Counted from the stretch's first letter, positions 43,193 to 57,337 are shown. The stretch is 64,000 bases of DNA from Candidatus Pacearchaeota archaeon (GCA_016186425.1 JACPLR010000011.1:13206-77205), one strand, 5' to 3'. Numbers and translations are program-made. Notes: a model not told the origin generated them from the sequence alone.

Positions 43193-43350
43193 TTATTTTT
43201 TAAAATATATAATATAAAATTTTTCTTTTAGGAAAAATTTTGCATGATTTATTAGATATTTAATTTAGGTTTAATAATTGTAACTTTTATTTTTCCAGTT
43301 AATTATTTATACTATTCTTTACTTAAACTTCTATATAAAATTATAGAAAA

Positions 43351-44355
43351 ATGGGACTAAACATACGAGATATCGTGCCGAGAAGGCAACTTGAACACGG
43401 AGAATTAAAAGGAAAAGTAGTAGCTGTTGATGCATTTAATGCTCTTTACCAATTTTTAAGTTCTATAAGGCAGTATGATGGAACTCCTTTGCAGGATTCA
43501 AAAGGGAGAATAACAAGCCATCTTTCTGGATTGTTTTACAGAAATGTTGCTTTATTGTCTGAAGGAATAAGATTAGTATATGTTTTTGATGGAAAGCCTC
43601 CTGAAATGAAAGCTGGAACAAACCAAGGAAGAATTGAGAGAAAAGATATTGCAAATGAAAAATATAAAGAAGCAAAAGAGAAAGAAGATTACGAGGCAAT
43701 GAAGAAATACAGCCAGCAAAATATAAGACTTAGTACAGAAATGATTGAAGAAAGCAAAGAATTGCTGATGGCAATGGGAATTGCTGTTGTTCAGTCGCCT
43801 AGCGAGGGTGAAGCACAAGCGTCTTATTTCGTAAAGAATAAAGAGGTTTATGCTGTTGCTTCGCAGGATTATGATTGCTTGTTATTTGGAGCGCCAAGAT
43901 TAATCCAAAATTTGACGCTGTCAAGAAAAAGAAAAACAGTTTCCGGATATGTTGAGATTTTTCCAGAGATTATTGAATTAGAAAAAGTTCTTAATAGCTT
44001 GCAAGTAAATCATGATCAGCTGATTTCTCTTGGCATTTTAGTTGGAACTGATTATAATCCTGGAGGTATTCACGGAATTGGCCAGAAAAAAGCCCTTCAG
44101 CTGGTGCAGAAATTCAAACAGCCCGCCTTGATTTTCAAGCAGTATGAGGAACTTGATTCGGAATGGAAGAAGATTTTTGAGATGTTTAAGAAACCTAGCG
44201 TTGATAAAAATGCAGAAATTAATTTTCCAAAGATAAATGAAGAGAAAATAAAAGAGATTCTTTTAGAGCACGAATTTTCAGAAGAGAGAATTAGCAACAG
44301 TCTTGAGAAATTGAAAGAGGCTAAGGAAAAAGGAAGCCAGAAGACGCTTTTCTGA
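43351..44355 (+). CDS. fen: Flap endonuclease 1 (FEN-1)
   Basis: XPG-N (MGLNIRDIVPRR..., DAFNALYQFL) and XPG-I regions (SPSEGEAQASY, ASQDYDCLLFGAP). H3TH region GIGQKKA. Confidence 0.9.
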   Translation: MGLNIRDIVPRRQLEHGELKGKVVAVDAFNALYQFLSSIRQYDGTPLQDSKGRITSHLSGLFYRNVALLSEGIRLVYVFDGKPPEMKAGTNQGRIERKDIANEKYKEAKEKEDYEAMKKYSQQNIRLSTEMIEESKELLMAMGIAVVQSPSEGEAQASYFVKNKEVYAVASQDYDCLLFGAPRLIQNLTLSRKRKTVSGYVEIFPEIIELEKVLNSLQVNHDQLISLGILVGTDYNPGGIHGIGQKKALQLVQKFKQPALIFKQYEELDSEWKKIFEMFKKPSVDKNAEINFPKINEEKIKEILLEHEFSEERISNSLEKLKEAKEKGSQKTLF

Positions 44356-44423
44356 AAATATTACAATAATTTTACCCGATTTTTAAGTTAAATTAGATAT
44401 GTTAAAATTACAAGTCTCTATAG

Positions 44424-44517
44424 CTTACTCATTTAAATAATGGAGGGAGATGGGATGATTTCAGATAAGGTTTTGAAAATAAGTAATCTAAAATTTTTCT
44501 ATGTAAAAAATTTATGC
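44424..44517 (+). repeat. A-type repeat copy
   Basis: cttactcatttaaataatggagggagatgggatgatttcagataaggttttgaaaataagtaatctaaaatttttctatgtaaaaaatttatgc. Confidence 0.8.
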
Positions 44518-44607
44518 CTAATTTAGAGCTTAAGTTATTATTGATCTCTATTCTGTTATGTATATTACTTACGATTTAATTCTTTATAATTAACTAAACT
44601 TTATATA

Positions 44608-45408
44608 TTGGTTTTTACTATTTATTTTATGATTCCAAAAAGCTTTGATGTGCTAGGAAATATTGCAATTCTTAAGTTTCCTGAAGAAACTAGAAAAAGT
44701 GAAAAATTAAAATCTGCAAAGCAGATATTAAAAGTGCATAAAAGCATTACCACTGTTTTGGAAAAATCTGATAAAATTAAAGGAAGATTAAGGACATTTA
44801 AGACAACTTATCTTGCTGGGATTAAAACAAAAATAGCTTCTTATGTTGAGAATGGATGCAGATTCAGGTTTGATGTTGAAAAAACATATTTTTCTCCGAG
44901 GTTAAGCAATGAGAGAAATCAGCTGGCAAAGAAAATAAAGAAAAATGAAAAAGTCTTGGTTTTGTTTGCAGGTGTTGCACCATTTGCTATAGTTATTGCA
45001 AAACTGGCAAAGCCGGAAATAGTTTATAGTGTTGAAATTAATAAAAATGCCAGTAAATGTGCTGAAGAAAATGTCAAACTGAATAAGTTGCAGAATATTA
45101 GGGTTATTCAGGGAGATTCTAAGAAAGTTATTCCAAAGTTGGTTAAGCAAGGAATTAAATTTGACAGAATAGTCATGCCAAGAGCTCAATTAAAAGAAAC
45201 TTTTTTGACTTTTGCCTTGAAAGTTATTAAAAAAAATGGAATAATTAATTATTACGGGTTTGGAAAGCAAGAAAGCGAGATATTAGATGAAATTGAGAGA
45301 GATGTTAAGAAGGCTGGGAAGAAAATTAAAATAATAAATATTAAAAAAGCCGGGAATATTGCTCCTTATAAGTATCGCTGGAGAGTGGATTTTAAGGTTT
45401 TGAATTAA
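44608..45408 (+). CDS. trm5: tRNA (guanine37-N1)-methyltransferase Trm5/Taw2-like class I SAM methyltransferase
   Basis: N-terminal SFDVLGNIAIL (Trm5 FDvIGdIaIv pattern), SAM motif VLVLFAGVAPFAI and NLPK-like region. Confidence 0.7.
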   Translation: MVFTIYFMIPKSFDVLGNIAILKFPEETRKSEKLKSAKQILKVHKSITTVLEKSDKIKGRLRTFKTTYLAGIKTKIASYVENGCRFRFDVEKTYFSPRLSNERNQLAKKIKKNEKVLVLFAGVAPFAIVIAKLAKPEIVYSVEINKNASKCAEENVKLNKLQNIRVIQGDSKKVIPKLVKQGIKFDRIVMPRAQLKETFLTFALKVIKKNGIINYYGFGKQESEILDEIERDVKKAGKKIKIINIKKAGNIAPYKYRWRVDFKVLN

Positions 45409-45432
45409 AATTCAGTCAATAAAAAGAAATAA

Positions 45433-45531
45433 AGTAGTTCTAGCGAAAAAATAAGTTAAAGGTATTAATGTATTTCAAAAAGTTTTTGAATCAATATAAG
45501 ACTAAATTTCTCTTTTGGGAGAAATTTAAAC
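45433..45531 (+). repeat. A-type repeat copy (loop variant ttttggga)
   Basis: agtagttctagcgaaaaaataagttaaaggtattaatgtatttcaaaaagtttttgaatcaatataagactaaatttctcttttgggagaaatttaaac. Confidence 0.75.
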
Positions 45532-45664
45532 TTAGTTATTGGCTGGTTAAGCTAAGCAGTTTTATTAATCTTATAATCTATTATCAACTACTTTTTCTAA
45601 TGATTTTACAACAAATATATTTAAAAACATCTTTAATTTTCTGCTATTCTACTGAATTATTAAA

Positions 45665-47698
45665 ATGCAATTTGAAGATATTAAAAAAGAAAGTGATAAA
45701 ACTGAAAAGAGCCAGCTGAAATTTAATGCTGACGGAAGCATTGATTTGCCGGATAGTGTTAAGGAAGATTTGGAAAAACAGAAAAAAGAGATGAAGGAAC
45801 TGGATATCTGGGATGACTTAGATGAAAATACTGGAGATGAGGAAAAAGAATATAATTTAAACGATAATGTCTCCGGATTTAATCTTTATTCACAAAATTC
45901 AAGGCTTAATCCTTTGATGTTTTCAAACAATAAAACACAGGAAGATGTTGTTAGTGAAGTTATGGATCTTATTCAAAAGGGGAAGAGAGTCATTTTTATT
46001 AAAGGTGTGTGTGGTACGGGCAAGTCAGCTATTGCGTTGAATCTTGCAAAAAAATTAGGAAGGGCAAGCATTATTGTTCCTGGCAAGGCTTTGCAGAAGC
46101 AATATATGGAGGATTATTCAAAGCAAAAATATGTTTTGAAAGATGACCATAAAAAACTAAAAATAAAAGTGATTACAGGAAGGAATAATCATCCTTGCTT
46201 GTATAAAAAGGGAGTTAGCGCTGATGATTCTGAACTGCCGTGTAAAATTGAAATAAACGAGAAAAATCTGGAAAAATTAAAAGAATATTTAAAAGAGAAT
46301 CCGAGAATAAAAAAAGATTTGGCGTTGAAAAATATAAGAAGAATATCTATTGCTCCTGTTTGCCCGTATTGGTCTCCAATTATTCCTTATGAGATGGATT
46401 ATCCTTTGGAAGCTGAGAAAAGGGAATATAGGGGATTGAGAGGAAGAAGATTTAGAATTTATAACAGAGAAAATGGATGCAGATATTATAATCAGTTTAA
46501 TTCTTACCTGGATTCAGAGGTAATTGTTTTTAATTCCATGAAATACAAGCTAGAAATGCTTATGAACCGCAAGCCGGCTACGGATGTTGAAATAATTGAC
46601 GAATGTGACGAATTTCTTGATAGTTTTGCAAATATAAACAGAATTAACCTCACAAGACTTTTAAATACTCTAATAAAACTTTATATTGATGATGACAGGG
46701 CTGAATTTGTAATTAAAAAATTGCTGGATTCTGTGAATAAAATTTTAAACGATGATTATACTGGAGAACTTATACTCAGAAATGATATAACTGAAATTAA
46801 AAAGACAGAAATTTATAATATCCTAAAGATTTTTTCAGATTATAAAGATATTTTCGAATTAGTTGATGAAGAAAATTACTGCTTAACTGTTTTGGAGACT
46901 GCCCTGGAATTTGAAGATCTGATTGATGAGGCATTTGTAAAGCTTTATCATAGTGAGAGAGGTTTGATTGCTGAAGTAGCTGCAACAAACCTTGCAAAAA
47001 AGTTTTTTGAAATGCTGGATAAAAATAAAATACTAATTTTAATGTCCGGGACAATCCACTCTCCGAGTGTTTTAAGAGACATTTTCGGAATTAAAGATTT
47101 TGAAGTAGTGGATGCTGAAGTTTTAACTCAGGGGAAAATTGAAGTTAAGAATACAGGCTTTGAAATAGATTGCAGGTATGAAAATTTTAAAAACGGCAAA
47201 GCAACCAGAGAAAATTATTTAATTGCATTAAATAAAGCTGTTGAACAGGCTGTAAAGCCTATTCTTGTTCATGTAAATTCTTTTAACGATCTTCCTTCTT
47301 ATGAAGAGAAATTTAAATATGGTTTAATCGAATTAATCACGGGACAGCAGCTTAAAGATACTCAATGGGAAGATAAGGAAAATAAGGAGGTAGAGAAATT
47401 TAAAAGCGGAAAAATCAGTGTTTTATTCACAACTAAATGCAATCGTGGAGCTGATTTTCCCGGAGATCAGTGCAGAAGCGTGATTTTCACAAAATATCCT
47501 AACCCTGATGTAGATTCAATATTCTGGAAAATTCTTAATAAAACACACAAGCATTATTACTGGGAGTTTTACAAGGACAAAGCAAAAAGAGAATTCTTGC
47601 AGAGAGTTTATCGTGGAGTTAGAAGCAAAGATGACTGGGTTTATGTTTTATCTCCCGATAAAAGAGTTTTGGATGCTGTTAAGACAATGAATGTTTAA
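45665..47698 (+). CDS. Rad3/XPD-like superfamily-2 DNA helicase with 4-Cys (Fe-S-like) insertion
   Basis: Walker A GVCGTGKSAIAL, four Cys between motif Ia and II (HPC...LPC...VCPYW...GCRYY), DExD-like IIDECDEF and motif VI-like QRVYRGVRS. The acidic N-terminal ~100 aa is atypical. Confidence 0.55.
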   Translation: MQFEDIKKESDKTEKSQLKFNADGSIDLPDSVKEDLEKQKKEMKELDIWDDLDENTGDEEKEYNLNDNVSGFNLYSQNSRLNPLMFSNNKTQEDVVSEVMDLIQKGKRVIFIKGVCGTGKSAIALNLAKKLGRASIIVPGKALQKQYMEDYSKQKYVLKDDHKKLKIKVITGRNNHPCLYKKGVSADDSELPCKIEINEKNLEKLKEYLKENPRIKKDLALKNIRRISIAPVCPYWSPIIPYEMDYPLEAEKREYRGLRGRRFRIYNRENGCRYYNQFNSYLDSEVIVFNSMKYKLEMLMNRKPATDVEIIDECDEFLDSFANINRINLTRLLNTLIKLYIDDDRAEFVIKKLLDSVNKILNDDYTGELILRNDITEIKKTEIYNILKIFSDYKDIFELVDEENYCLTVLETALEFEDLIDEAFVKLYHSERGLIAEVAATNLAKKFFEMLDKNKILILMSGTIHSPSVLRDIFGIKDFEVVDAEVLTQGKIEVKNTGFEIDCRYENFKNGKATRENYLIALNKAVEQAVKPILVHVNSFNDLPSYEEKFKYGLIELITGQQLKDTQWEDKENKEVEKFKSGKISVLFTTKCNRGADFPGDQCRSVIFTKYPNPDVDSIFWKILNKTHKHYYWEFYKDKAKREFLQRVYRGVRSKDDWVYVLSPDKRVLDAVKTMNV

Positions 47699-47825
47699 TA
47701 AAAAATTTAAAATTTTATAAATACCCCGGTATATTTTATACCTCTTTTTGGTATAAAACTTACCATAAATAATTTATAGTATATAATCTATAAAAAAATA
47801 TTAAAGCTTAATATATCTAGTGTGA

Positions 47826-47945
47826 AAATCGGGGAAGAATATGGTTATATTTCAAAATTATTCTTGAATCAACACTATACTAAATAATAAAGACAATCAA
47901 TGGTTTTCTTTATCAAACTTTCCTTTTATTAGGAGAAATTTAACA
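47826..47945 (+). repeat. Composite repeat: A-type leader + hairpin 1, reverse B-type module, then hairpin-2-like end (ttttattaggagaaatttaac)
   Basis: aaatcggggaagaatatggttatatttcaaaattattcttgaatcaacactatactaaataataaagacaatcaatggttttctttatcaaactttccttttattaggagaaatttaac. Confidence 0.8.
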
Positions 47946-48125
47946 TAATTTCAAGTAGTCACTAGTTTCTTAAGGTAAATGAGGTGTTTTGATAACTTAT
48001 AGTTTTTATATATTTTTGTAAAAAGAGATTTCATAAAGAGAATTATAAATTCTTTTTATTTTATATATCATAATATTTATATACTATACTGCCAATATTT
48101 GAATATAAAAAGAGAATAAAAGAGG

Positions 48126-51100
48126 ATGAGAATTAGCAAATTTGCTCTTAGTTTAATAGTTGTATTTATCTTTACTTTAGGATTATCTGTAGCTGTTTAC
48201 GCAGTTGACGACTTGATGGCTTTGCAGGGAAATGTGCAACAAAGCGGGGTTAATCTGGCTTCTGGAAACCTGACTGTTTATATTTTTGATGCTTATAGCA
48301 GTGGAAATGTTGTTTATAATTCAACCACTGATTTTTTTAATTCTATTTCAAGCGGAAAATATGATGTAATGCTTGGAAATGGCTCGCAAACATTAAGCCT
48401 TGAATACGGAAGAACATATTTTCTTGAAATGTATGTTAATAATGAGAAGCTAAGCTTTAATGGCTCAACAAGGCAGGTATTCCAGAGTTCTGCAGGCCAG
48501 ATTAATGGCAGTTTTATTAATCCAAACCAGATAAATACAACCCATATTTCTGGAAACATTTCTTTCACACAATTATCTGGATACGAAAATATTGTTTTAA
48601 CAAATAAATCCTCAACATTATCTGATGGCTACAACATTACAACTGGCGCTGGGGGATGGTTTAAAGGGCTGTTTAATTGGATTATAAACTCAACATCATC
48701 CCTTTATTTAAGCTTTAATGGAACAACTTTAAGTTTTAATGAAGCGCAATTAAATTCAACTATTGACTCTAGAGTTAGCTGGGGAGGATATATAATTTCA
48801 TCAGTAAGCAATAACACATTCTCTCAAATAACAAACAATACATTCTCTTTAATAACAAATAACACATTCTCTCAAATAACAAACAATACATTCTCTTTAA
48901 TAACAAATAATACACTCTCTCAAATAACAAATAATACACTCTCTCAAATAACAAATAATACTTTCTCTTTAATAACAAATACAACATTCTCAACTATTGG
49001 TAATAACACAATTTCAACCATAGGAAATTCCACCTTTTCTTTAATTACAAACACAACTATTTCAACAATTGGGAATAATACTTATTTAAAAATTACAGAC
49101 AATAATCTTTATCTTAATTTCACGCCTTCTGGTACAGTTGACTTTAATAGGGGATGGCAGTCTGGAGGGCTGACAATAAGCAACGGAAATATTTTTGCTC
49201 AAACAGGTTATTTTTATAATATAACTTCACTAGCCGTAAATAATCTTAATGTAAATGCGAGCATAATTCCTGGGACTGGATTTGATTCAACATTTGATAT
49301 TGGAAACGTGACTTCTAGATGGAGAGATGCCTTTTTTACAGGTGTTGTTAATGCCTCAACATTCTCGGCAAAATATCTGAATGCAACAACAGAAGCTTAC
49401 ATTAATGGCGCTGCTGTTAGCACTTGGCTTTATAACCAAACAACGCCCGCATCAATAATCGGCAACTCATCTGTAAGTAATCTGATTAACAATACTTTTT
49501 CTCCAATATCTAACAGCACATTTTCATTAATTACTAATACTACCTTTTCAGAAAGAATTAATGCAACTTATCCATTTATTTCAAATTTTTCAATATCAAA
49601 AACAATTAATGAAACTTTATCTGAAAGAGGAAATGCAACTTATGTAAAGTTAGGTTATAATCCATTCAACCAAGACCTTAACACATCAGATTCTGTTATC
49701 TTCCAAAATATAACTTTAACAGGGAATTTGACTCTTAAAAGTTCTTTTATGAATAATACACAAGTAATTTTCATTAACAGTCCTACTAACGGTGAATTAG
49801 TAGATGGATTATATTTAACAAAAACAGCCGATGCAAGCAGGAACTGGATAACTTGGAATCAAGGCGCATCTGGTTTAGCAGATTGGAGAATTGGCATGAC
49901 TAGAAATTCTATAGGAGGTTATTCTTTATCTTTTTATAATGCTAATGGCTCTACGTCAAATGCAACAAATCCTGGATTAGAAGTTTTAAGATTAACTGGT
50001 TATACTCAAGCTGGAAATGTTATTATTCCAAATGGGAGAGTAGGAATAAATATAACCTCTCCAGCAGCTGCTTTAGATGTAAATGGGGGAATTATTGGAG
50101 CAAACATAACTTCAACAGGAAATTTAACTATAAGCGGGAATGCAACATTTTTAGATAGGGTTGGAATAGGAACAGCAAGTCCTGCAGCAACTTTAGATGT
50201 TAATGGAGGAGATATAAGAGTTAATGGAGAAATTGTTACTAATAATTATAGCAGAATAGTTTTAACAAGACCAGACCAATTAGCAAGCGGAAATGTTTTA
50301 AATATAATTAATTATGGGGCAAATCAAAGCGACCAAACAAATTTAGGGATATCAACAACTAATACTACAATGATTTTTACAAATATTGGAAGTCCTGAAC
50401 AGGTTGCTTTTGCAATAGGAACAAGAGGTTCTTCTCCTTTAGTATTTTCTACAAATAATGCAGAAAGAATGAGGATACTTTCTGGAGGGAATGTGGGGAT
50501 AGGAACAACAACTCCTGCAAAAACATTAGAAGTTGCAGGACAAGCTCAAATTAGGTCTACATCTCCTGAATTATATTTTAATGATACAAGTGCAACAGGG
50601 CAAAATTATAGATTATCAATGTTTAATGATGATTTTTTGCTTCAAGATTGGAATGGTGCAAATACAATATTCCAAATGAATAATACCAGAATAGTTTTTA
50701 ATAAAAATGTTGGAATTGGGACAACAACTCCGAAAGCAACTTTAGATGTTAATGGAAATTTAACTATCACTGGGAATTTAACAATTACAAACGGAACAAC
50801 TGATAATGTTATATTCTATGCTAATCCTGTAAATTCAAGAGTTGGAATAGGAACAGTAAGCCCTGCAAATAATTTGAATATTCTTGCGGGGGCTGTTTCA
50901 AATATAGTTAATATATCTTCAAACGGGGCAAATAGAGAAGGAGATATAATATTAGGAAGAACAACAGGATATTTTGTATCATCAACTCCAGGAGGTTTTA
51001 TTTCTACTGCGGATACTTTGTCAATTGTCTCTGCAAACCATATTTCTTTCGGCAATTCAAGTTCTCTTGTTGAATATGCAAGAATTACGGGAGATGGAAA

Positions 51101-51884
51101 ATTCATTGTTTCAGGAACTGTAAATATCACTTCAAATTTAACAATAAGGAATAGTTTTTTTGTTAATGGCTCTAATTTACGATTAGGAATGGTTAATGCG
51201 CCAGATAATAGTGTTGTCCATATAAATGGAAGTGCTATTGGAAATGGAAATGCAATTACCTTAGGAAAGGCAGGACCAGGAAATTGGGGTTTAGATAGCA
51301 CTGGGGCTTTGATAGTTATAATTGGAGGAGATGATGCTGTAGCTCGTGATGCAGGAATTGCATTTAGAGATGAAAGAAGCAATAACATATGGAGCATAAG
51401 AAATGATGTTTCCGAGGGGAGAAAATTAAAAATAGGTTATGGGGGTACTGTAACCGATTTGCTTATTTTAGTTAATACGACAAATCTTGTTGGAATTAAT
51501 GTTCCAGACCCTGCAGCAACCTTAGATGTAAATTCAACTTCAGGATTAGGGGCATTTTTAGTAAGAAATAATTCAAATAATTTATTCTTTATTAATGCCA
51601 CTACAGGTTTTTTGGGAATTGGAACAGCAAATCCAACATCAACATTATATGTTAATTCTTCTTATGGAAACGGAGCATTTCTTGTTCAAAATGATTCAAA
51701 TCCAAATTTATTGTTTGTAAATGGCTCAAGTGGATTTGTTGGGATAGGAACTGTTTCGCCAAGACAGAAGCTTGAAGTAGCCGGCAACGTTAATGTCAGC
51801 AATCATGGAAGCAATATTACATTAGGAAAAGGCCAGATGTACTGGGATAATCCAAACAACAGGCTTGTTATTAGGGTGAGCTAA
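48126..51884 (+). CDS. Giant cell-surface (S-layer/adhesin-like) glycoprotein, 1252 aa, with internal repeats
   Basis: An N-terminal signal/anchor (ISKFALSLIVVFIFTLGLSVAVYA) is followed by dozens of N-x-S/T sequons. There are 14 tandem heptads NNTFSQIT/NNTFSLIT and 8 copies of the motif (R/N)VGIGTxxPxxxL(D/E)V(N/A)G. Confidence 0.8.
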   Translation: MRISKFALSLIVVFIFTLGLSVAVYAVDDLMALQGNVQQSGVNLASGNLTVYIFDAYSSGNVVYNSTTDFFNSISSGKYDVMLGNGSQTLSLEYGRTYFLEMYVNNEKLSFNGSTRQVFQSSAGQINGSFINPNQINTTHISGNISFTQLSGYENIVLTNKSSTLSDGYNITTGAGGWFKGLFNWIINSTSSLYLSFNGTTLSFNEAQLNSTIDSRVSWGGYIISSVSNNTFSQITNNTFSLITNNTFSQITNNTFSLITNNTLSQITNNTLSQITNNTFSLITNTTFSTIGNNTISTIGNSTFSLITNTTISTIGNNTYLKITDNNLYLNFTPSGTVDFNRGWQSGGLTISNGNIFAQTGYFYNITSLAVNNLNVNASIIPGTGFDSTFDIGNVTSRWRDAFFTGVVNASTFSAKYLNATTEAYINGAAVSTWLYNQTTPASIIGNSSVSNLINNTFSPISNSTFSLITNTTFSERINATYPFISNFSISKTINETLSERGNATYVKLGYNPFNQDLNTSDSVIFQNITLTGNLTLKSSFMNNTQVIFINSPTNGELVDGLYLTKTADASRNWITWNQGASGLADWRIGMTRNSIGGYSLSFYNANGSTSNATNPGLEVLRLTGYTQAGNVIIPNGRVGINITSPAAALDVNGGIIGANITSTGNLTISGNATFLDRVGIGTASPAATLDVNGGDIRVNGEIVTNNYSRIVLTRPDQLASGNVLNIINYGANQSDQTNLGISTTNTTMIFTNIGSPEQVAFAIGTRGSSPLVFSTNNAERMRILSGGNVGIGTTTPAKTLEVAGQAQIRSTSPELYFNDTSATGQNYRLSMFNDDFLLQDWNGANTIFQMNNTRIVFNKNVGIGTTTPKATLDVNGNLTITGNLTITNGTTDNVIFYANPVNSRVGIGTVSPANNLNILAGAVSNIVNISSNGANREGDIILGRTTGYFVSSTPGGFISTADTLSIVSANHISFGNSSSLVEYARITGDGKFIVSGTVNITSNLTIRNSFFVNGSNLRLGMVNAPDNSVVHINGSAIGNGNAITLGKAGPGNWGLDSTGALIVIIGGDDAVARDAGIAFRDERSNNIWSIRNDVSEGRKLKIGYGGTVTDLLILVNTTNLVGINVPDPAATLDVNSTSGLGAFLVRNNSNNLFFINATTGFLGIGTANPTSTLYVNSSYGNGAFLVQNDSNPNLLFVNGSSGFVGIGTVSPRQKLEVAGNVNVSNHGSNITLGKGQMYWDNPNNRLVIRVS
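48805..49100 (+). repeat. Tandem 21-bp repeat (~14 copies) within the giant surface protein gene, encoding heptads (I)TNNTFS(Q/L)
   Basis: The unit ATAACAAA(T/C)AA(T/C)ACATTCTCT(C/T)(A/T)A repeats head-to-tail. Diverged copies follow (TNTTFSTIGNNTISTIGNSTFSLI...). Confidence 0.8.
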
Positions 51885-52163
51885 TGATTATTTACAAAAT
51901 AAAAAGGAATTAAAATGTTTTATAAATTAGAACATTTGTTCAAGAAATTAGAACAAGAGAAAGAAAAGATGAAGAAAAATAAAATAATATCAGTTAATAA
52001 GTATAATAAATTAGGCAAAAGTATTTCATGGTTTCAAGATATTATGAATCATTACCATACTAAATTTCTCATTAGAGAGAAATTTAACCTTATTTATTTG
52101 GCTAGTTAAGTTTATTAAATTTATAAAATGGGCGTGAAAAATGGAAAATAAATATGAGAATAT

Positions 52164-52529
52164 TTATTTAATTCGGAATCCAAATAAAGAAAGGATAAAT
52201 AATTTGCCAGAAAATTCTATCGGGCTAATTTCATTAAATAACTTTGAGAGTGATGAAAATATGACCTCAATCCTTGGTGGATGTAGGTCTATAAAAATAA
52301 TTCCTGGATGCTCTTTTGGAGGAAACAGGTTTTTATCTATGAAGTGCTTATCAAAAGTTAATATAACTCTCGATTCGGCTTTTGCTAGGTTCGAAAGAAT
52401 TTTGTCAGTTGCACCTATAGGTATTTTTTTAATGTCAAAACCCTCTTTGATCAACAATTCAGTCAGTCCAACAGGTATATTTTCATCAGAAATAAGCTTT
52501 GGTTTATTGGAAGAGGACATATTTCTCAT
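52164..52529 (-). CDS. DUF5615 (PIN-like) putative toxin, cassette 1
   Basis: KLISDENIPVGLTELLIKEGFDI...ILTFDKHF matches the DUF5615 pattern (M-fLlDENl......L...GhDv...ilT-D-DF). Overlaps the end of the DUF433 gene. Exact start is uncertain (Met at 52550, 52529 or 52520). Confidence 0.6.
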   Translation of the reverse strand: MRNMSSSNKPKLISDENIPVGLTELLIKEGFDIKKIPIGATDKILSNLAKAESRVILTFDKHFIDKNLFPPKEHPGIIFIDLHPPRIEVIFSSLSKLFNEISPIEFSGKLFILSLFGFRIK

Positions 52530-52740
52530 CTTCCACAAGCTTAGAAGCATAGTTCAAGACAGAGAAAATAGCTTCTTTATTGAGTTGCGGGAAATAATTT
52601 TTTATAATCTCCTCAATAGTTATTCCGCTTCCAAGAAGCTCCAATACCTGCCATACCATAATTCTAGTATTCTTGAATACAGGCTTTCCGTGGCATATTT
52701 CACTATCTACAATAATATAATCATTTATTTCAATTCTCAT
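52504..52740 (-). CDS. DUF433 putative antitoxin, cassette 1
   Basis: MRIEINDYIIVDSEICHGKPVFKNTRIMVWQVLELLGSGITIEEIIKNYFPQL closely matches the DUF433 consensus (I--dP-i--GkP-i-GTRI-V--vl--l--G-s-eEI---YP-Lt-e-I-aAL-yA). Confidence 0.75.
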   Translation of the reverse strand: MRIEINDYIIVDSEICHGKPVFKNTRIMVWQVLELLGSGITIEEIIKNYFPQLNKEAIFSVLNYASKLVEDEKYVLFQ

Positions 52741-52900
52741 AAAGCAATTAAGTCAGAAGAAGTATTTAAACTTTCTGAATCTTTACCATATTTTAAGCAT
52801 GATATTAATAATCATCAGCTTTTATATAATGATTTAAAGCATATAAATTATAGAAAATGAAACTTAAAAATAGAATAACTTCAATAGATAAGTATGGCAA
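52741..52900. repeat. Direct repeat copy 1 (~145 bp) immediately upstream of the cassette 1 DUF433 start
   Basis: Nearly identical to 53596..53745 (tcagaagaagtatttaaactttctgaatctttaccatattttaagcatgatattaataatcatcagcttttatataatgatttaaagcatataaattatagaaaatgaaacttaaaaatagaataacttcaatagataagtat). Confidence 0.85.
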
Positions 52901-53018
52901 AAGCATTATAGGATTTCATAATATTTATTTGACTAGTTAAATTAGTGTTTGTTGACTTTATAAAATGAGCGTGAAAAATGGAAAATAAAATTAATGAAAG
53001 AATTAAAACAGAGCAAGA

Positions 53019-53360
53019 TTATAGTATTTTAAACTCTTTATCCGAGATTAAAAGAATAACTCTTCCTTTTAATTCATACTCTGAAAATTTTTTTAATAGG
53101 TTTAATATCGCATTTTTTTGTAGATCAACCTTATTTGGAGGGATTCTTAATAATATTATCCCAAAATGGTGTTCTAAAGAAGAATATGGAGGCTTTGAAA
53201 AATCAGTATCTTGTGAAATAATTATTCTTTCTTTAGTTATTGCTAATTTAAAGACTTCACCATTTTTAATTCCTTTAGGGCAGAATATAACATCATGCCC
53301 TAATTTCTTTAGAAAAGAAAGTAAATTATTATGTGCATTTTCGTCCAATAAAAATCTCAT
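53019..53360 (-). CDS. DUF5615 (PIN-like) putative toxin, cassette 2
   Basis: MRFLLDENAHNNLLSFLKKLGHDVIF...IIISQDTDF...GIILLR matches DUF5615. Its start is 1 nt after the DUF433 stop. Confidence 0.7.
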   Translation of the reverse strand: MRFLLDENAHNNLLSFLKKLGHDVIFCPKGIKNGEVFKLAITKERIIISQDTDFSKPPYSSLEHHFGIILLRIPPNKVDLQKNAILNLLKKFSEYELKGRVILLISDKEFKIL

Positions 53361-53361
53361 T

Positions 53362-53595
53362 TTATACAGCTATAGTGTCAAAACTTCTTTTAGTAAGCTT
53401 GGTAGCAAGATCAAGTGCTGCTTTAATGTGCTCTTTTGTAAGAGAGGGATAGGCCTCAAAGATATCATTTATACTAGCTCCTTCTTCAAGCATTTCAAGA
53501 ACGAGATATACCATTATCCTAGTCCCTTTAAATACAGGTTTTCCATGGCATATTTCACTATCTACAATGATATAGTCATTTATGTCAATTCTCAT
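53362..53595 (-). CDS. DUF433 putative antitoxin, cassette 2
   Basis: MRIDINDYIIVDSEICHGKPVFKGTRIMVYLVLEMLEEGASINDIFEAYPSLTKEHIKAALDLA is canonical DUF433. The first ~30 aa are near-identical to the cassette 1 antitoxin. Confidence 0.8.
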   Translation of the reverse strand: MRIDINDYIIVDSEICHGKPVFKGTRIMVYLVLEMLEEGASINDIFEAYPSLTKEHIKAALDLATKLTKRSFDTIAV

Positions 53596-53750
53596 AAGCT
53601 AATTAAGTTAGAAGAAGTATTTAAACTTTCTGAATCTTTACCATATTTTAAGCATGATATTAATAATCATCAGCTTTTATATAATGATTTAAAGCATATA
53701 AATTATAGAAAATGAAACTTAAAAATAGAATAACTTCAATAGATAAGTAT
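53596..53750. repeat. Direct repeat copy 2 upstream of the cassette 2 DUF433 start
   Basis: See copy 1. This is the shared promoter/5' region of the two TA-like operons. Confidence 0.85.
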
Positions 53751-53763: not shown

Positions 53764-55281
53764 ATGATAACTAATAAGGTGAAATTAAAAATGGAAAATA
53801 AAAAATTTGGATATTTTGAGTATATAAAAAGCAAAAAAATGGTTTTTCTGTATTTAGCAATTATTTTATTAGCCTCTATACTAATTTTTAGGTTATTTGA
53901 CCCAAATAATCCTCTTACAGGAAACTCTGTTAAGATTACAGGAGAGGCAATTAGGCAGGAACAAATTAGTGCTGAAAAAGATAAATTAATTAAAGCGCCA
54001 ATTGAGGTAAAAGAAAAGAGAGATTATACTTCTCAAACTTATAAAAATCCTGATGGCACCTACACAGCAGTAATTGGGGCTAGGCCCCAGTTTTTTTTCA
54101 ATGGAAGCGAGTTTACAGAAATTGAAAAAATTTCTCAGCCAAGAATTGAAAAAAAAGAAATTGTTTTAAATAAAAAACCAACAAATAATATTTTTGATTT
54201 TGGAACTTATAATCTTGCCGAAGGCATTAATGCCAGCATAGACCTTGAAACTCAAGAATTAATTTTAAGGGATGTAAATAATAATATCATGCAGGTTTTG
54301 CCAAGGCCTTTCAGCATTGACAAAAATAATAATACTTTATTTAATAATTATAAAATATCACAAAAAAAGCAAAAGCTGACGATAAGTGTTAATGTTGACA
54401 AAATATGGCTAGATAATGCTGAATATCCGGTTGTAATTGATCCGACAACAATAACAATTTTAACAAATACTTATATGGGAAATGTTTATCCGGTAGGAGG
54501 CATAGGAGGGGGGTATTATAAAAGAAGTTCTAATGGCTCTACTATTGGAGCAGACTGCACTTTTGGAGAGCCAAATACCTGTGAAACCTACAGAACTTTT
54601 ATTGAATTTGATACAACAGCAATACCTGATTCAGCAGATATAAATGACACAATACTTAATATAAGTGTTAGTTCAAGAACATTTTGCTCTGGCGAATCAG
54701 AAATTCATACAAATATAACAAGATTTAATAACTCGCGAATTTCAGACCCAACGAACTATTCCGGAACTAATGCGGGAAATCTGTCTTTATTCAACAATAT
54801 TTCAACAGGATATAAATACCTTGGAAGCTATGCCAGTGATTTAAATTACACCGAAGTTGGCAAAGAATTTACACGAGACCTAGGAACAAAGGCTGATGAA
54901 GATTTAAAATCACAATTAGGAAATAATTTTTTTGCATTAGGAGTTTATACAAACCAAGAAACTTCAACATTAGACTGTATACATACAGTTACTTTTAATG
55001 ACTCTGCAAAAGCTTCTGGATATCCAAAACTTATGGTAAATTACACCTCTGCTGCATGTGTTATACCGCCTAATGGTGATTGGAATTGCAATGCCAGCTG
55101 TATTTTTACAAATGAAAACCTTAAAATTACTGGGGGCGATTTAGTTATTCGTGACCAGTGTAACCTAACCTTGAACGCATCAACTAACCTAACCTTGGCT
55201 TCGCCAGGAAGATATATTTTGGTATATAGTGGGGGGCAAATTTTTATCCATAATGGCTCTGGAATTAACAGGAGAAATTAA
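53764..55281 (+). CDS. Secreted/anchored surface protein (505 aa), N-terminal TM/signal anchor
   Basis: An N-terminal hydrophobic segment (MVFLYLAIILLASILIF) is followed by an N-x-S/T-rich, Cys-containing ectodomain. No family recognised. Confidence 0.55.
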   Translation: MITNKVKLKMENKKFGYFEYIKSKKMVFLYLAIILLASILIFRLFDPNNPLTGNSVKITGEAIRQEQISAEKDKLIKAPIEVKEKRDYTSQTYKNPDGTYTAVIGARPQFFFNGSEFTEIEKISQPRIEKKEIVLNKKPTNNIFDFGTYNLAEGINASIDLETQELILRDVNNNIMQVLPRPFSIDKNNNTLFNNYKISQKKQKLTISVNVDKIWLDNAEYPVVIDPTTITILTNTYMGNVYPVGGIGGGYYKRSSNGSTIGADCTFGEPNTCETYRTFIEFDTTAIPDSADINDTILNISVSSRTFCSGESEIHTNITRFNNSRISDPTNYSGTNAGNLSLFNNISTGYKYLGSYASDLNYTEVGKEFTRDLGTKADEDLKSQLGNNFFALGVYTNQETSTLDCIHTVTFNDSAKASGYPKLMVNYTSAACVIPPNGDWNCNASCIFTNENLKITGGDLVIRDQCNLTLNASTNLTLASPGRYILVYSGGQIFIHNGSGINRRN

Positions 55282-55825: not shown

Positions 55826-57337
55826 ATGCAATCAGCAAGGTCTGAAGATAATAGTAGTAAGTATGCTCAAGATAGCAATAATGTAAATAATAGTGAAAGT
55901 GATAGAGGCCTCTATGGGTTTTATTCTGGCTTAAAAGATTTTGGAAAAAGCCTGGGGAAAAAAGCACTTAGAACAGGGCTTGTTTCTTTAGTAGGATTAA
56001 CAGCTTATTTTTCTGGGATTTTACCAATGGGAAAAGCATACGCTCTTCCAAGTCCTCCAGCCGGGCTTACAACAATTAATGCCCAGTTAATGGATAAAGC
56101 AACTTTTGATAGTAAATACCCAAATCCAAATGATGCTCCAGCTTATACTTATTTTGATGATCCTGCTAATCCTTATCGTGATGCACAGGGCAATCTTATA
56201 AATACTCCTTTAGATACTGCTTTAGAGGATTTTAAAGCACTTACACAAGCAAATCCTGATACATATTTAATTGATTTTCATATTTCAGATAACAGAAGAT
56301 ATTTTTCTCATAGGGACTTGCATGATCTAAATTATGACATGGAAATTTATGGAGATGGAAAAGATTATACCATAATTGAGGTATCATTGCAGGCTCTTAA
56401 GTTTCTAGGAATTAGGGATATAAGCGGAGGAACAGGCACTACTGGTATTGGTTTTGTTGTATATCCTCTGGATTCAAGCGGATATATGGTAAATAGCCAT
56501 AGTGAAGAAACAATTAACATTGATCAGTCAGCTAATATTGAAATTATTAACAATATACTTACAAACCGCAGCACTGATGCAACAATAATCGTATCAGGTC
56601 CTCTTGCAAAATCAGGAATAGTTAATTCTATTCTTAATTATAATGATATATCGGCAACTTTAGGATTTCAGTTGCAAAGGGCTGCTGTTGTTGATATGGG
56701 AACAAGTGGAAAATTTGGTAACAATAATGTTAACTGCACTACTGCAATATATGGTTCTCCAACATTTAACGGAGAGGTTATTGCAGTTGGTGATGCTTGG
56801 GTTGGAACAGTTGCAAAATCTATAAAGGGCTCTACAAGAATGGAAAAAACGCAAGGTTACTTGACGAATGTTAATGATATTTTTGCTCAAAAAGTTGACA
56901 ATGACGGGGGCGGAACAATAACTATTTCAAGCCCTTTAGGTTATAATCCTGTAGTAGTTGATACTGACAATGAAGGATTAACAGATGGTTTTGAAGCAAC
57001 AATTGGCACAAATCCTACTCTGGCTGACACAGACGGAGACCATATCAGCGATTATGCAGAACATACTCTTGGAAGCAATCCTCTTAACCCTGCAGATGTT
57101 CCGTTAATATCTCCTGATGTCTGGGTTGATTTTGCTTATCCTTATACAGATGGCATTGGCACAAGCAATAATCCATTTCCAACAGCCCTTGAGGGAATTA
57201 TTAGCGTTTTCCCATTTGGAACAGTTAAAATAAAGGGAAATACTGGAGATAATTCAACTGCAGAAGCTTTACGCATTACAAAACCAATGAGAATTGAGGC
57301 AGTTAATGGTGGTGTAAGAATTGGGGCAAACAATTAA
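55826..57337 (+). CDS. Secreted surface protein (503 aa) with thrombospondin-type-3-like Ca-binding repeats
   Basis: The hydrophobic segment LVSLVGLTAYFSGILPMGKAYA acts as signal/anchor. A later DTDNEGLTDGFEATIGTNPTLADTDGDHISDYAEHTLGSNPLNPAD region has the DxDxDG-x-x-D/E pattern of TSP3-like calcium-binding repeats. Confidence 0.55.
   Translation: MQSARSEDNSSKYAQDSNNVNNSESDRGLYGFYSGLKDFGKSLGKKALRTGLVSLVGLTAYFSGILPMGKAYALPSPPAGLTTINAQLMDKATFDSKYPNPNDAPAYTYFDDPANPYRDAQGNLINTPLDTALEDFKALTQANPDTYLIDFHISDNRRYFSHRDLHDLNYDMEIYGDGKDYTIIEVSLQALKFLGIRDISGGTGTTGIGFVVYPLDSSGYMVNSHSEETINIDQSANIEIINNILTNRSTDATIIVSGPLAKSGIVNSILNYNDISATLGFQLQRAAVVDMGTSGKFGNNNVNCTTAIYGSPTFNGEVIAVGDAWVGTVAKSIKGSTRMEKTQGYLTNVNDIFAQKVDNDGGGTITISSPLGYNPVVVDTDNEGLTDGFEATIGTNPTLADTDGDHISDYAEHTLGSNPLNPADVPLISPDVWVDFAYPYTDGIGTSNNPFPTALEGIISVFPFGTVKIKGNTGDNSTAEALRITKPMRIEAVNGGVRIGANN

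What the first reader, a model, noticed from the sequence alone, without database searches (positions are those of the whole stretch)
48126..51884. 1252-aa surface glycoprotein with 14 perfect-ish heptad tandem repeats and an 8-fold VGIGTxxPxxxLDVNG motif
The 21-bp tandem array (48805-49100) encoding (I)TNNTFS(Q/L) is nearly perfect at the DNA level. That implies recent expansion and likely copy-number variation (phase or antigenic variation) by slipped-strand or recombination events. Each heptad carries an N-x-T/S sequon, so repeat number directly sets the N-glycan density. Downstream, the motif (R/N)VGIGTxxPxxxL(D/E)V(N/A)G recurs 8 times at irregular spacing. Similar GIGT..P...L-V-G motifs occur in beta-helical fibre or adhesin proteins (recalled from memory, not verified). 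This is the likely dominant surface antigen or attachment protein.
Basis: seen in the sequence. Interest (0 to 1): 0.55.

Follow-up and report, generated by a model that had tools for sequence, protein, structure and literature searches.

The report
Tail-fibre-like surface fibre of a DPANN archaeon
This gene of a tiny, probably symbiotic archaeon (Pacearchaeota) most likely encodes a sugar-coated, three-stranded surface fibre built from the same modules as phage tail fibres and the prey-grabbing fibres of Bdellovibrio, and its middle part changes very fast between close relatives.

Summary
The 1252-aa ORF (48126-51884, +) is real. The tandem repeat is real but mis-measured. Its unit is 24 bp / 8 aa (ITNNTFSQ/L), not 21 bp / 7 aa. 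There are 13 units, and only the first 7 (48804-48971) are near-identical at the DNA level. A second, degenerate octad array lies at aa 447-510. The eight VGIGTxxPxxxL motifs are confirmed.

The window is chromosomal DNA of a 30 % GC Pacearchaeota (DPANN) archaeon. The motif-bearing C-terminal half is homologous to the intertwined trimeric beta-helix stalks of Bdellovibrio "mosaic adhesive trimer" (MAT) fibres (family profile against PDB 8OND, E 1e-16). There the same motif forms capping loops. It also resembles annotated phage tail fibres.

The N-terminal Ig-like domain, which directly follows a signal peptide, defines a DPANN family of at least 582 clusters. Relatives carry S74 chaperone, YadA-head or lectin modules. 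The gene sits at one conserved housekeeping locus in at least 14 of 20 genomes. In the closest relative, neighbours are 86-88 % identical but the fibre is only 43 %, with the middle cassettes exchanged.

N-x-S/T sequons occur at twice the expected number (z 7.2).

Copy-number variation could not be tested. Phase variation is unlikely because the unit is in frame. Trimer formation and an adhesin role are inferred.

The parts
48126..51884 (+). Complete ORF, 1252 aa, with stop codon. Putative trimeric surface fibre. It has no cysteine and 72 N-x-S/T sequons.
48126..48203 (+). Sec-type signal peptide (aa 1-26: MRISK, then a 19-residue hydrophobic core, then VYA). Cleavage after A26 is inferred.
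   Evidence: Read from the sequence. In most of the 150 best family representatives the conserved domain starts at about residue 20-45, directly after such a segment.
48204..48800 (+). Conserved N-terminal domain (aa 27-225, 'VDDLMALQGNVQQSGVNL...'). Its core, aa 27 to about 122, is predicted as an Ig/FN3-like beta-sandwich. It is the family-defining module and the presumed base or docking end of the fibre.
   Evidence: Conserved in 46 of 57 homologues. It gives 582 hits at E<=1e-3 among 1.84e9 representatives. AF2 pLDDT is 68-88 for the first 90 or so residues. Foldseek finds only generic Ig/FN3 matches, best E 0.013. It is 79 % identical in the closest relative.
48804..49115 (+). Octad array 1: 13 units of 24 bp / 8 aa (ITNNTFSQ/L and variants), with 12 sequons spaced by 8 residues. 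Units 1-7 (48804-48971) are young (83-100 % identical apart from unit 1, with exact duplicates). Units 8-13 are old and show a 3-unit (24-aa) super-period.
   Evidence: family D1
49116..49463 (+). Conserved middle module (aa 331-446: ...DFNRGWQSGGLTISNGNIFAQTGYFYNITSL...FDIGNVTSRWRD...VSTWLYNQT). Its fold is unknown.
   Evidence: Conserved in about 31-35 of 57 homologues. It is 56 % identical in the closest relative. The family profile finds no PDB match.
49464..49655 (+). Octad array 2: 8 degenerate octads (aa 447-510), each starting with an N-x-S/T sequon. The units are diverged at the DNA level.
50040..51785 (+). Stalk region carrying the 8 capping-loop motifs (V/L)G(I)(G/N)(T)xxPxxxLxV. 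The 48-nt motif copies are at 50040, 50160, 50493, 50709, 50841, 51489, 51612 and 51738.
   Evidence: family D4: 7 copies, 69-85 % DNA identity. The motif equals the MAT capping-loop consensus (PMC10769870).
50313..50804 (+). Segment aa 730-893, aligned to the two beta-helix domains of Bdellovibrio Bd2133 (PDB 8OND). It includes the '...STNNAERMRILSGGNVGIGT...' strand-plus-loop signature.
   Evidence: phmmer E 1.4e-8 and 1.6e-7. Family profile E 1.1e-16 against 8OND, plus 8OJN, 8OML, 8OL4 and 8ON4. PHROG 9942 'tail fiber protein' E 1.1e-10 over aa 700-1010. Phage tail fibres by tblastn, E 1e-8 to 2e-4.
51606..51881 (+). Conserved C-terminal end (aa 1161-1252). The last 45 or so residues, '...VGIGTVSPRQKLEVAGNVNVSNHGSNITLGKGQMYWDNPNNRLVIRVS', form the exact C-terminus of at least 13 family members. 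There is no transmembrane helix. Its role is unknown; a trimer cap or a docking tail are possibilities.
   Evidence: 13 proteins end with this tail; 62 % identity to the closest relative
53764..55281 (+). Conserved downstream neighbour (505 aa) with an N-terminal transmembrane anchor and 19 sequons against 8.3 expected. It is a candidate partner or anchor of the fibre. This link rests on inference only.
   Evidence: A homologue follows the fibre gene in L008 (60 % identity), L014, L017, L018 and L024. Sequon count. No Pfam family.

Best explanation
The gene encodes a secreted, probably heavily N-glycosylated, homotrimeric surface fibre of a Pacearchaeota (DPANN) archaeon.

Proposed anatomy, from N to C:
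- a Sec signal peptide;
- a family-defining Ig-like N-terminal domain, presumed to hold the fibre on the cell envelope;
- a shaft made of two octad arrays, with one N-glycan site per 8 residues, around a conserved middle module;
- a distal stalk of several intertwined triple-beta-helix modules, each bounded by a VGIGTxxPxxxL capping loop, as in Bdellovibrio MAT fibres and S74-type phage tail fibres;
- a short conserved C-terminal tail.

Proposed function: it reaches out from the small cell and binds a surface ligand, on the host cell of the presumed episymbiont or on another surface.

Proposed evolution: the ends are kept while the middle cassettes are exchanged, expanded or contracted. The 24-bp octads allow in-frame gain or loss of units. 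Each change would alter shaft length and glycan number together.

Shown here: the ORF and its repeats; homology of the stalk to solved trimeric beta-helix fibres; family distribution; the conserved locus; mosaic divergence; sequon excess.

Inferred: signal-peptide cleavage; actual glycosylation; trimer formation; the fold of the octads; orientation on the cell; adhesin function.
For: 1. Chromosomal archaeal context. PolB, FEN1, Trm5/Taw2, an XPD-like helicase and archaeal-type PheRS alpha/beta flank the gene, and GC is about 30 %.
2. The stalk is homologous to five solved MAT fibre fragments. phmmer against 8OND gives E 1.4e-8. The family profile gives 1.1e-16 (8OND), 4e-10 (8OJN), 2.5e-8 (8OML), 1e-5 (8OL4) and 4e-4 (8ON4). 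The alignments cover the 'ERMRI...G.VGIGT..P...L.V' strand-loop unit, not just the motif.
3. PMC10769870 shows these regions are intertwined trimeric beta-helices. It identifies this motif as their capping loop, shared with S74 tail fibres.
4. PHROG 9942 'tail fiber protein' matches at E 1.1e-10. Annotated tail fibres of Pelagibacter, cyano- and Thermus phages match at E 1e-8 to 2e-4.
5. Relatives with the same N-terminal domain carry trimer-specific modules: the Peptidase_S74 chaperone at the C-terminus (P0018, P0035) and YadA head repeats in nine stretches (P0036). Others carry a lectin-type Laminin_G_3 (P0001).
6. The N-terminal domain gives 582 hits at E<=1e-3 among 1.84e9 representatives, 268 at E<=1e-10 and 55 at E<=1e-30, in most listed hits directly after a leader. 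All 20 species-level genomes found are DPANN archaea, going by record title or, for the mislabelled L018, by neighbouring genes.
7. The locus is conserved in at least 14 of 20 genomes.
8. Fast mosaic evolution. In the closest relative (L008), FEN1, Trm5 and the helicase are 88, 86 and 86 % identical. The fibre is 43 % identical over the aligned 706 columns. The N-terminal domain is 79 %, the middle module 56 % and the C-terminal tail 62 % identical. The octad arrays and the centre have no collinear counterpart.
9. Sequons are enriched (z 7.2) and there is no cysteine, as is typical of archaeal surface glycoproteins.
10. The octad period of 8 equals that of the T4 gp5 C-terminal triple beta-helix. 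There is a weak Pfam hit to Gp5_trimer_C over aa 255-325 (E 0.015).
Against: - No oligomer model could be made. Monomer AF2 of both halves was low-confidence (pLDDT 49.5 and 46.2), so neither the fibre fold nor the trimer was seen directly.
[quoted passage not shown] Its homology to the MAT N-terminal domain could not be tested.
- MAT fibres end in variable tips. This protein and at least 12 relatives end in the same short conserved tail, so the MAT logic (conserved base, variable tip) does not map simply.
- The Gp5_trimer_C hit is far below Pfam's cut-off (15.9 against 30.9 bits).
- The octads also match 24-residue LRR proteins (E 1e-9).
- There are no expression, localisation, glycosylation or binding data. 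Host association of Pacearchaeota is itself inferred from general knowledge of DPANN archaea.
Confidence: 0.65

Rival explanations
1. It is the S-layer protein, or an S-layer stalk or anchor subunit, of this archaeon. In this reading it is a structural envelope lattice component and not an adhesin fibre.
For: Proposed S-layer proteins of DPANN archaea are large, have signal peptides, Ig-like folds and many N-glycosylation sites, lack a C-terminal TM helix and diverge fast (bioRxiv 10.1101/2023.10.27.564410). This protein shares those traits: an Ig-like N-terminal domain, 72 sequons and no C-terminal TM. One copy sits at a conserved core locus.
Against: The C-terminal half is homologous to fibre stalks, not to any S-layer protein. 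Relatives carry S74 chaperone, YadA-head and lectin modules, which are typical of fibres and adhesins. No Pfam or NCBIfam S-layer family was hit. Cassette swapping of the middle part between close relatives fits a recognition protein better than a lattice protein. However, S-layer proteins also diverge quickly.
Confidence: 0.15
2. One reading: a dominant surface antigen whose 21-bp heptad array undergoes slipped-strand phase or antigenic variation, with repeat number setting glycan density.
For: Units 1-7 include exact duplicates and a 53-bp exact direct repeat, which are substrates for slippage or unequal recombination. There is one sequon per unit. The array is absent from the closest relative and matches nothing in the 5.8e9-cluster protein database, so it is evolutionarily young. 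Another family member (P0030) has an independent octad array, NFTDSFKL.
Against: The unit is 24 bp, so any copy-number change stays in frame and no ON/OFF switching is possible. Seven near-identical 24-bp units make a short array with a modest expected slippage rate. No polymorphism data were obtainable. Units 8-13 are old and stable. There is no evidence on abundance or antigenicity.
Confidence: 0.25
3. The octad array folds as a single-chain solenoid or leucine-rich-repeat-like domain (three octads equal one 24-residue coil). In this reading it is itself a ligand-binding domain and not part of a trimeric shaft.
For: phmmer hits designed and natural 24-residue LRR proteins (5A5C, 3RFJ, 5GS2; E 1e-9 to 1e-5) over aa 225-321. 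TRF finds a 72-bp (24-aa) super-period. Units 8-13 read as two 3-unit super-repeats. The conserved Asn could form an Asn ladder.
Against: Only 3 of the 5 LRR signature positions (LxxLxLxxNxL) are matched when the alignment is read by eye. No Pfam LRR family is reported, even at E<=1. AF2, which usually models LRRs confidently, gave pLDDT of about 30 here. The match can be explained by shared periodicity and N/T/L-rich composition. The young units duplicate in steps of 1 and 2 octads, not 3.
Confidence: 0.15
4. It is the receptor-binding tail fibre of an integrated or defective archaeal virus.
For: There is similarity to phage tail fibres. One relative (P0044) is auto-annotated 'tail fiber domain-containing protein'.
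Against: The gene lies between housekeeping genes at the same locus in at least 14 of 20 DPANN genomes. It has an N-terminal secretion signal, which virion fibres lack. The genes scanned between 39.5 and 62.3 kb (housekeeping genes, a DUF5615 protein, a TSP3-repeat protein) include no viral structural, packaging or integrase gene; the small ORFs at 52-53.7 kb were read only by eye.
Confidence: 0.03

Closest known systems
Bdellovibrio bacteriovorus MAT (mosaic adhesive trimer) fibres, non-S74 subgroup, e.g. Bd2133 (PDB 8OND); Caulton et al. 2024, PMC10769870
   Same: - About 1000-aa secreted proteins.
- A conserved beta-rich domain directly after the signal peptide.
- A stalk of beta-helix modules bounded by the (V)G(I)(G/N)(T)xxPxxxL capping loop, with direct sequence homology (E 1e-8 for the single sequence, 1e-16 for the profile).
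- The family contains both S74-terminated and non-S74 members.
- Mosaic domain swapping.
- The owner is a small cell that lives on other cells.
   Different: - Archaeal rather than bacterial owner, with no outer membrane.
- The N-terminal domain shows no detectable similarity to anything solved, and homology to the MAT N-terminal domain was not tested.
- Both ends are conserved and the middle varies, whereas MATs vary at the C-terminal tip.
- There is a massive N-x-S/T sequon load.
- Octad arrays are present.
- One copy was seen at a conserved locus in each locus examined (whole genomes were not surveyed), whereas B. bacteriovorus has 21 paralogues.
S74-type phage tail fibres and tailspikes (K1F endosialidase 3GW6, T5 pb1 4UW8; Pfam PF13884 Peptidase_S74)
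   Same: The same capping-loop motif and triple beta-helix stalk logic (PMC10769870). Weak direct similarity to annotated tail fibres. Relatives P0018, P0035, P0044 and P0047 carry PF13884.
   Different: This protein has no S74 chaperone domain. It has a secretion signal and is a chromosomal cellular gene.
T4 gp5 C-terminal triple-stranded beta-helix (octapeptide VxGxxxxx; Pfam PF22178)
   Same: An 8-residue period in a protein that is otherwise fibre-like. Weak Pfam hit over aa 255-325 (E 0.015).
   Different: The score is below Pfam's cut-off. The octad consensus is I-T-N-N-T-F-S-Q/L, with no conserved Gly, and carries a glycosylation sequon. The fold was not established.
Putative S-layer and surface glycoproteins of cultivated DPANN archaea (e.g. 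Nanobdella aerobiophila MJ1_0160; bioRxiv 10.1101/2023.10.27.564410)
   Same: Signal peptide, Ig-like fold, many N-glycosylation sites, no C-terminal TM helix, restriction to DPANN, fast divergence.
   Different: No sequence relationship was tested or seen. Those proteins are strings of Ig-like domains or pectin-lyase folds, not capping-loop beta-helix fibres.

Membership tests
MAT (mosaic adhesive trimer) fibre superfamily | N-terminal signal peptide | tested here: met
   MRISK plus a 19-residue hydrophobic core plus VYA, read from the sequence. The conserved domain starts right after such a leader across the family. No dedicated signal-peptide predictor was available.
MAT (mosaic adhesive trimer) fibre superfamily | Conserved beta-rich domain of about 130 aa immediately after the signal peptide, homologous among members | tested here: inconclusive
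   A conserved domain of about 100-200 aa with a beta-sandwich core occupies this position. Homology to the Bdellovibrio N-terminal domain could not be tested, because that domain has no solved structure or sequence in the tools. The profile found nothing in the PDB.
MAT (mosaic adhesive trimer) fibre superfamily | Beta-helix stalk modules with the capping-loop motif V-G-(x)-G/N-small-x-x-P-x-x-x-L | tested here: met
   Eight motif copies. Sequence homology to 8OND, 8OJN, 8OML, 8OL4 and 8ON4.
MAT (mosaic adhesive trimer) fibre superfamily | Intertwined homotrimer | not testable with these tools
   Only monomer AF2 was available, and it gave pLDDT 46-50. Indirect support comes from trimer-specific modules (S74, YadA head) in relatives.
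MAT (mosaic adhesive trimer) fibre superfamily | Diversified adhesive C-terminal tip or S74 chaperone | tested here: not met
   The protein ends in a short tail that is conserved at the C-terminus of at least 13 family members. No tip domain or S74 was detected. Variation is in the middle.
Peptidase_S74 (intramolecular chaperone) tail fibres | C-terminal S74 chaperone/protease domain (PF13884, SDxxxK) | tested here: not met
   No PF13884 hit at E<=1 in this protein. It is present in relatives P0018, P0035, P0044 and P0047.
T4 gp5 C-terminal beta-helix (PF22178) | Match to the family model above the gathering score; VxGxxxxx octads | tested here: not met
   15.9 bits against a cut-off of 30.9. 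The period of 8 is shared, but there is no conserved Gly.
Leucine-rich repeat proteins | LxxLxLxxN(x)L signature in 20-29-residue repeats; match to Pfam LRR models | tested here: inconclusive
   phmmer hits to LRR chains at E 1e-9, but no Pfam LRR family is reported at E<=1. Three of five signature positions fit when read by eye. AF2 pLDDT is about 30 over the array.
Archaeal N-glycoproteins (AglB substrates) | Secreted protein with N-x-S/T sequons that are actually glycosylated | not testable with these tools
   Sequons occur at twice the expected number (z 7.2), against no excess in cytoplasmic neighbours. Occupancy needs glycoproteomics.
Contingency (phase-variable) loci with tandem repeats | Repeat unit not divisible by 3, or located in a promoter, so that copy number switches expression | tested here: not met
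   The unit is 24 bp, in frame and inside the ORF.
Diversity-generating retroelement targets | A template repeat elsewhere that matches a variable region of the gene, plus a reverse transcriptase | tested here: not met
   No repeat elsewhere in the 64-kb window matches any part of the gene. An element outside the window is not excluded.

The most novel reading that the evidence does not exclude
This is the founding example of a DPANN-wide, single-locus fibre system, made of the fibre plus the conserved TM-anchored, sequon-rich neighbour orf505. In this reading it is the host-recognition device of Pacearchaeota and Woesearchaeota episymbionts, an archaeal counterpart of Bdellovibrio MAT fibres and phage tail fibres. 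Host range would be re-tuned by cassette exchange in the middle of the gene. In-frame gain or loss of glycan-bearing octads would set fibre reach and glycan shielding.
Probability: 0.3. Interest if true: 0.75.

Novelty: new variant of a known kind. Interest (0 to 1): 0.5.

Why it matters
How uncultivated DPANN archaea such as Pacearchaeota find and hold on to host cells is unknown. Their surface proteins are almost entirely unannotated. This gene links a large DPANN-restricted protein family to an experimentally characterised class of recognition fibres, namely Bdellovibrio MAT fibres and phage tail fibres.

The family has at least 582 clusters at 50 % identity. It sits at one conserved chromosomal locus. 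It evolves much faster than its neighbours.

That makes it a concrete, testable candidate for the host-recognition determinant of these organisms. It also gives a marker locus for strain-level host-range variation in metagenomes.

The octad arrays, with one N-glycan sequon per 8 residues, would be an unusual, modular way of building a glycan-coated fibre shaft.

Tried and rejected
- **Monomer AF2 of aa 600-1252 and aa 27-600, with family alignments.** Mean pLDDT was 49.5 and 46.2. Only aa 27 to about 122 were usable, so the C-half model was not used for fold search.
- **Foldseek of the N-half model against PDB and BFVD.** Only generic Ig/FN3 matches, E >= 0.013 for PDB, and nothing meaningful in BFVD. 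The AFDB library was unavailable.
- **Pfam, NCBIfam and PHROGs on the whole protein.** No family above threshold except PHROG tail-fibre groups.
- **Search for the same gene in other assemblies, to test copy-number variation.**
  - Exact-protein look-up found nothing.
  - Neighbour look-ups found one same-strain Logan contig that ends upstream of the gene.
  - Look-up of the downstream gene found nothing.
  - The metagenome scan found only relatives at 51-61 % identity.
  - The first genome scan found nothing.
  - A query with the array plus its flanks gave no hit in 5.8e9 clusters.
- **Prophage origin.** Rejected because of the conserved housekeeping synteny.
- **DGR-type diversification.** No template-like repeat in the window.
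- **Phase variation.** Rejected because the unit is 24 bp.
- **Rfam.** No RNA family anywhere in the window. Nothing significant in the upstream intergenic region.
- **Literature.** No paper was found that describes this DPANN family. The cryo-ET 'antennae' of PMC11329633 belong to the host, not to the DPANN cell.

Full report
**1. Observation**

The ORF 48126..51884 (+) is intact and encodes 1252 aa. An SD-like GAGGA lies directly upstream of the ATG.

*Repeat unit.* Tandem Repeats Finder reports a period of 24 bp (48810-48991, 7.6 copies, 85 % matches) and a 72-bp super-period. It does not report 21 bp. In protein register there are 13 octads from aa 227 to 330 (nt 48804-49115): VSNNTFSQ, ITNNTFSL, ITNNTFSQ, ITNNTFSL, ITNNTLSQ, ITNNTLSQ, ITNNTFSL, ITNTTFST, IGNNTIST, IGNSTFSL, ITNTTIST, IGNNTYLK, ITDNNLYL.

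*Age of the units.* Only units 1-7 (48804-48971) are close to one another at the DNA level, at 17-24 of 24 bases. Units 2 and 4 are identical, and so are units 5 and 6. A 53-bp exact repeat sits at a 48-bp offset. Units 8-13 share 10-18 of 24 bases with the others. So there were a few recent duplications of one or two units on top of an old array.

*Second array.* A degenerate array of eight octads lies at aa 447-510, each beginning with a sequon.

*Motif.* The eight (V/L)G(I)(G/N)(T)xxPxxxLxV motifs are at aa 640, 680, 791, 863, 907, 1123, 1164 and 1206. They occur nowhere else in the window. At the DNA level the copies are 69-85 % alike (family D4).

*Sequons.* The protein has 72 N-x-S/T sequons against 36.8 +/- 4.9 in shuffles (z 7.2). 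Without the arrays it has 52 against 26.8. It contains no cysteine. Neighbouring cytoplasmic proteins have only the expected few sequons.

**2. Organism and context**

The window has about 30 % GC. Around the gene it carries family-B DNA polymerase, FEN1, Trm5/Taw2, an XPD-like helicase and archaeal PheRS alpha and beta. All named homologues of the protein come from Pacearchaeota, Woesearchaeota or Nanoarchaeota MAGs.

A Logan contig from run SRR12113424 matches window 43213-47927 at 99.98 %. The strain therefore exists in a public data set, but that contig stops before the gene.

The closest species-level genome is Pacearchaeota RIFCSPHIGHO2_02_FULL_31_29 (L008).

**3. What the protein is made of**

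*C-terminal half.* aa 730-893 align to the two beta-helix domains of Bdellovibrio Bd2133 (PDB 8OND; E 1.4e-8). Other parts align to 8OJN and 8OML. A profile of the archaeal family raises this to E 1.1e-16. It adds 8OL4 and 8ON4, and the S74-bearing MyRF weakly at E 0.1.

Caulton et al. (PMC10769870) solved these structures. They are intertwined trimeric beta-helices ("mosaic adhesive trimer" fibres). The motif V-G-G/N-small-x-x-P-x-x-x-L forms capping loops at the edges of each helix module. The same feature occurs in S74 tail fibres (K1F endosialidase, T5 pb1).

The alignments printed show that the shared unit is longer than the motif: "S..ERMRI...G.VGIGT..P...L.V.G". PHROG 9942 (tail fiber protein) matches aa 700-1010 at E 1.1e-10. 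tblastn finds annotated tail fibres of Pelagibacter phages, cyanophage S-TIM5 and Thermus phages at E 1e-8 to 2e-4.

*N-terminal end.* aa 27-225 is the best-conserved module of the family, present in 46 of 57 homologues. AF2 predicts a beta-sandwich for aa 27 to about 122, with pLDDT 68-88. That sandwich has only generic Ig/FN3 neighbours in the PDB. Against 1.84 billion representative proteins this domain finds 582 proteins at E<=1e-3, 268 at E<=1e-10 and 55 at E<=1e-30. In most of the 150 listed hits it starts at about residue 20-45, directly after a leader; a minority have longer N-terminal extensions.

*Other conserved parts.* A middle module (aa 331-446) and the last 45-90 residues are also conserved. 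At least 13 family members end with the same "...GNxNxS...GxGxxYWDxxNxRLVIxVS" tail.

*Relatives.* Proteins with the same N-terminal domain carry a C-terminal Peptidase_S74 chaperone (P0018, P0035), YadA head repeats in nine matched stretches (P0036), a YadA stalk (P0051, just under Pfam's cut-off), Laminin_G_3 (P0001), and DUF2341 and DUF2793. S74 and YadA modules are hallmarks of obligate trimers.

**4. Evolution at the locus**

The gene has positional orthologues. In at least 14 of 20 species-level DPANN genomes it lies beside the same helicase/Trm5/FEN1/PolB block, or beside the PheRS / amino-acid-kinase / RNase P p30 block.

Identity between the window and each relative:

| Protein | L008 (closest relative) | L007 (more distant) |
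|---|---|---|
| FEN1 | 88 % | 74 % |
| Trm5 | 86 % | 68 % |
| Helicase | 86 % | 62 % |
| Fibre | 43 % over 706 aligned columns | 34 % |

Other L007 neighbours fall in the same range: PolB 70 %, PheRS alpha 73 %, amino-acid kinase 70 %. RNase P p30 is lower, at 48 %.

Region by region against L008, the N-terminal domain is 79 % identical, the middle module 56 % and the C-terminal 93 residues 62 %. The octad arrays and the central stalk have no collinear counterpart. Instead, L008 has "WLYNQT...NxTNLNxSG" modules and a Laminin_G_3 insert.

The octad array with its flanks has no match at E<=1e-3 among 5.8 billion clusters. Another member (P0030) carries an independent octad array, NFTDSFKL. So sequon-bearing octads arise repeatedly in this family.

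A 505-aa neighbour (53764-55281) has an N-terminal TM anchor and 19 sequons. Its homologue follows the fibre gene in at least five other genomes.

**5. Mechanism proposed**

The most likely reading is a secreted, N-glycosylated homotrimeric fibre. The conserved Ig-like N-terminal domain would hold it on the envelope, possibly through the conserved TM-anchored neighbour. The octad arrays and the middle module would form a glycan-covered shaft. The capping-loop beta-helix modules would form the distal stalk.

Its likely job is ligand or host-cell recognition. This rests on analogy with MAT fibres and phage tail fibres, and on the fast, cassette-like change of the middle part.

Gain or loss of 24-bp units is in frame. 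It would change length and glycan number together. It cannot switch the gene off.

Steps shown: repeats, homology, distribution, synteny, mosaic divergence, sequon excess. Steps inferred: cleavage, glycosylation, trimer formation, octad fold, orientation, function.

**6. Rivals**

- *S-layer or S-layer stalk protein.* It shares the general traits described for DPANN surface proteins. It does not explain the fibre homology or the adhesin-type modules in relatives.
- *LRR-like solenoid for the octads.* This is kept as a minority view.
- *Viral tail fibre.* Rejected because of the synteny and the signal peptide.

**7. Comparison and novelty**

The protein works like a MAT or tail-fibre stalk, and it meets the motif and homology criteria. 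It does not have the MAT arrangement of a variable C-terminal tip or S74 end. Its N-terminal domain could not be linked to the MAT base domain.

No paper in the searchable library describes this DPANN family. Database names are "hypothetical protein" or, for one relative (P0044), "tail fiber domain-containing protein".

I rate it a new variant of a known kind. It is of moderate interest as a concrete candidate for DPANN host recognition.

Noticed in passing
window 52164-52740 and 53019-53595 (minus strand); direct repeats 52607-52895 / 53462-53750 and 52110-52152 / 52947-52989: Two tandem gene pairs lie immediately downstream of the fibre gene. Each pair is a 77-78-aa ORF (the two begin with the same motif, MRIxINDYIIVDSEICHGKPVF; they look DUF433-like from memory and were not scanned) followed by a 113-128-aa ORF. 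The first larger ORF matches DUF5615 (Pfam E 1.9e-13); the second was not scanned. The pairs look toxin-antitoxin-like. The small-ORF ends are 87 % identical over 289 nt, while the larger partners differ. The long + strand ORFs 52141-52860 and 52978-53715 overlap these genes and are probably spurious.
   Followed up: partly
window 47875-47949 (+) and 58205-58279 (-); also 12177-12207 (-), 25631-25661 (-), 26995-27025 (+): A dispersed intergenic element has the core 'ATAATAAAGACAAnCnATGGTTTTCTTTATCAAACTTTCCTTTTA'. Five copies match within 3 mismatches, against 0 expected. Related variants lie at 23277, 27193 and 63723. One inverted pair (75 nt, 84 % complementary) brackets the 10.3-kb block that holds the fibre, the DUF5615-type gene pairs, orf505 and orf503. 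The same-strain Logan contig ends inside the left copy. There is no Rfam match. Function unknown; a promoter, terminator, small RNA or MITE-like element are possibilities.
   Followed up: partly
window 12327-12399, 16876-16948, 17960-18032, 36294-36366, 43198-43270, 44471-44543, 45484-45540, 52042-52098: A second family of intergenic repeats contains a hairpin, 'AAATTTTTCTnTGTGAAAAATTT', followed by 'TTAAC.TGATTTAT'. It recurs between many genes and may be a combined terminator/promoter module of this genome.
   Followed up: no
window 53764-55281 (+): A 505-aa protein with an N-terminal TM anchor, 19 sequons (8.3 expected), 8 Cys and no Pfam family. Its homologue follows the fibre gene in L008 (60 % identity), L014, L017, L018 and L024. 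A 1426-aa protein in L007 is weakly similar. It is a possible partner or anchor of the fibre.
   Followed up: partly
window 55826-57337 (+): A 503-aa protein with bacterial thrombospondin type-3 (TSP3_bac, calcium-binding) repeats at aa 379-399 and a hydrophobic segment near aa 50-70. It is 48 % identical to its positional counterpart in L008. It is a further surface-protein candidate in the same block.
   Followed up: no
L018 (DAOTCN010000002.1) and protein P0022: These records are labelled 'Candidatus Paceibacterota bacterium' (a CPR bacterium). However, L018 carries the fibre gene next to a Trm5, an XPD-like helicase and PheRS alpha/beta that are 55-70 % identical to those of the window. 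The genome is most likely a mislabelled Pacearchaeota archaeon. P0022's own contig was not examined.
   Followed up: partly
protein P0030 (Pacearchaeota WC584_02295), aa ~422-470: An independent octad array, (K/S)(L)NFTDSF(K), with 8-spaced sequons in another member of the family. This shows that sequon-bearing 8-residue repeats arise repeatedly in these fibres.
   Followed up: no
protein P0182 (163-aa fragment, source 'src'): A database fragment 97 % identical to the N-terminal domain of the window protein. It shows that a very close strain was sampled elsewhere. It is too short to reach the octad array.
   Followed up: no
window 1-64000: No Rfam family reached its gathering score anywhere in the 64 kb, on either strand.
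   Followed up: no
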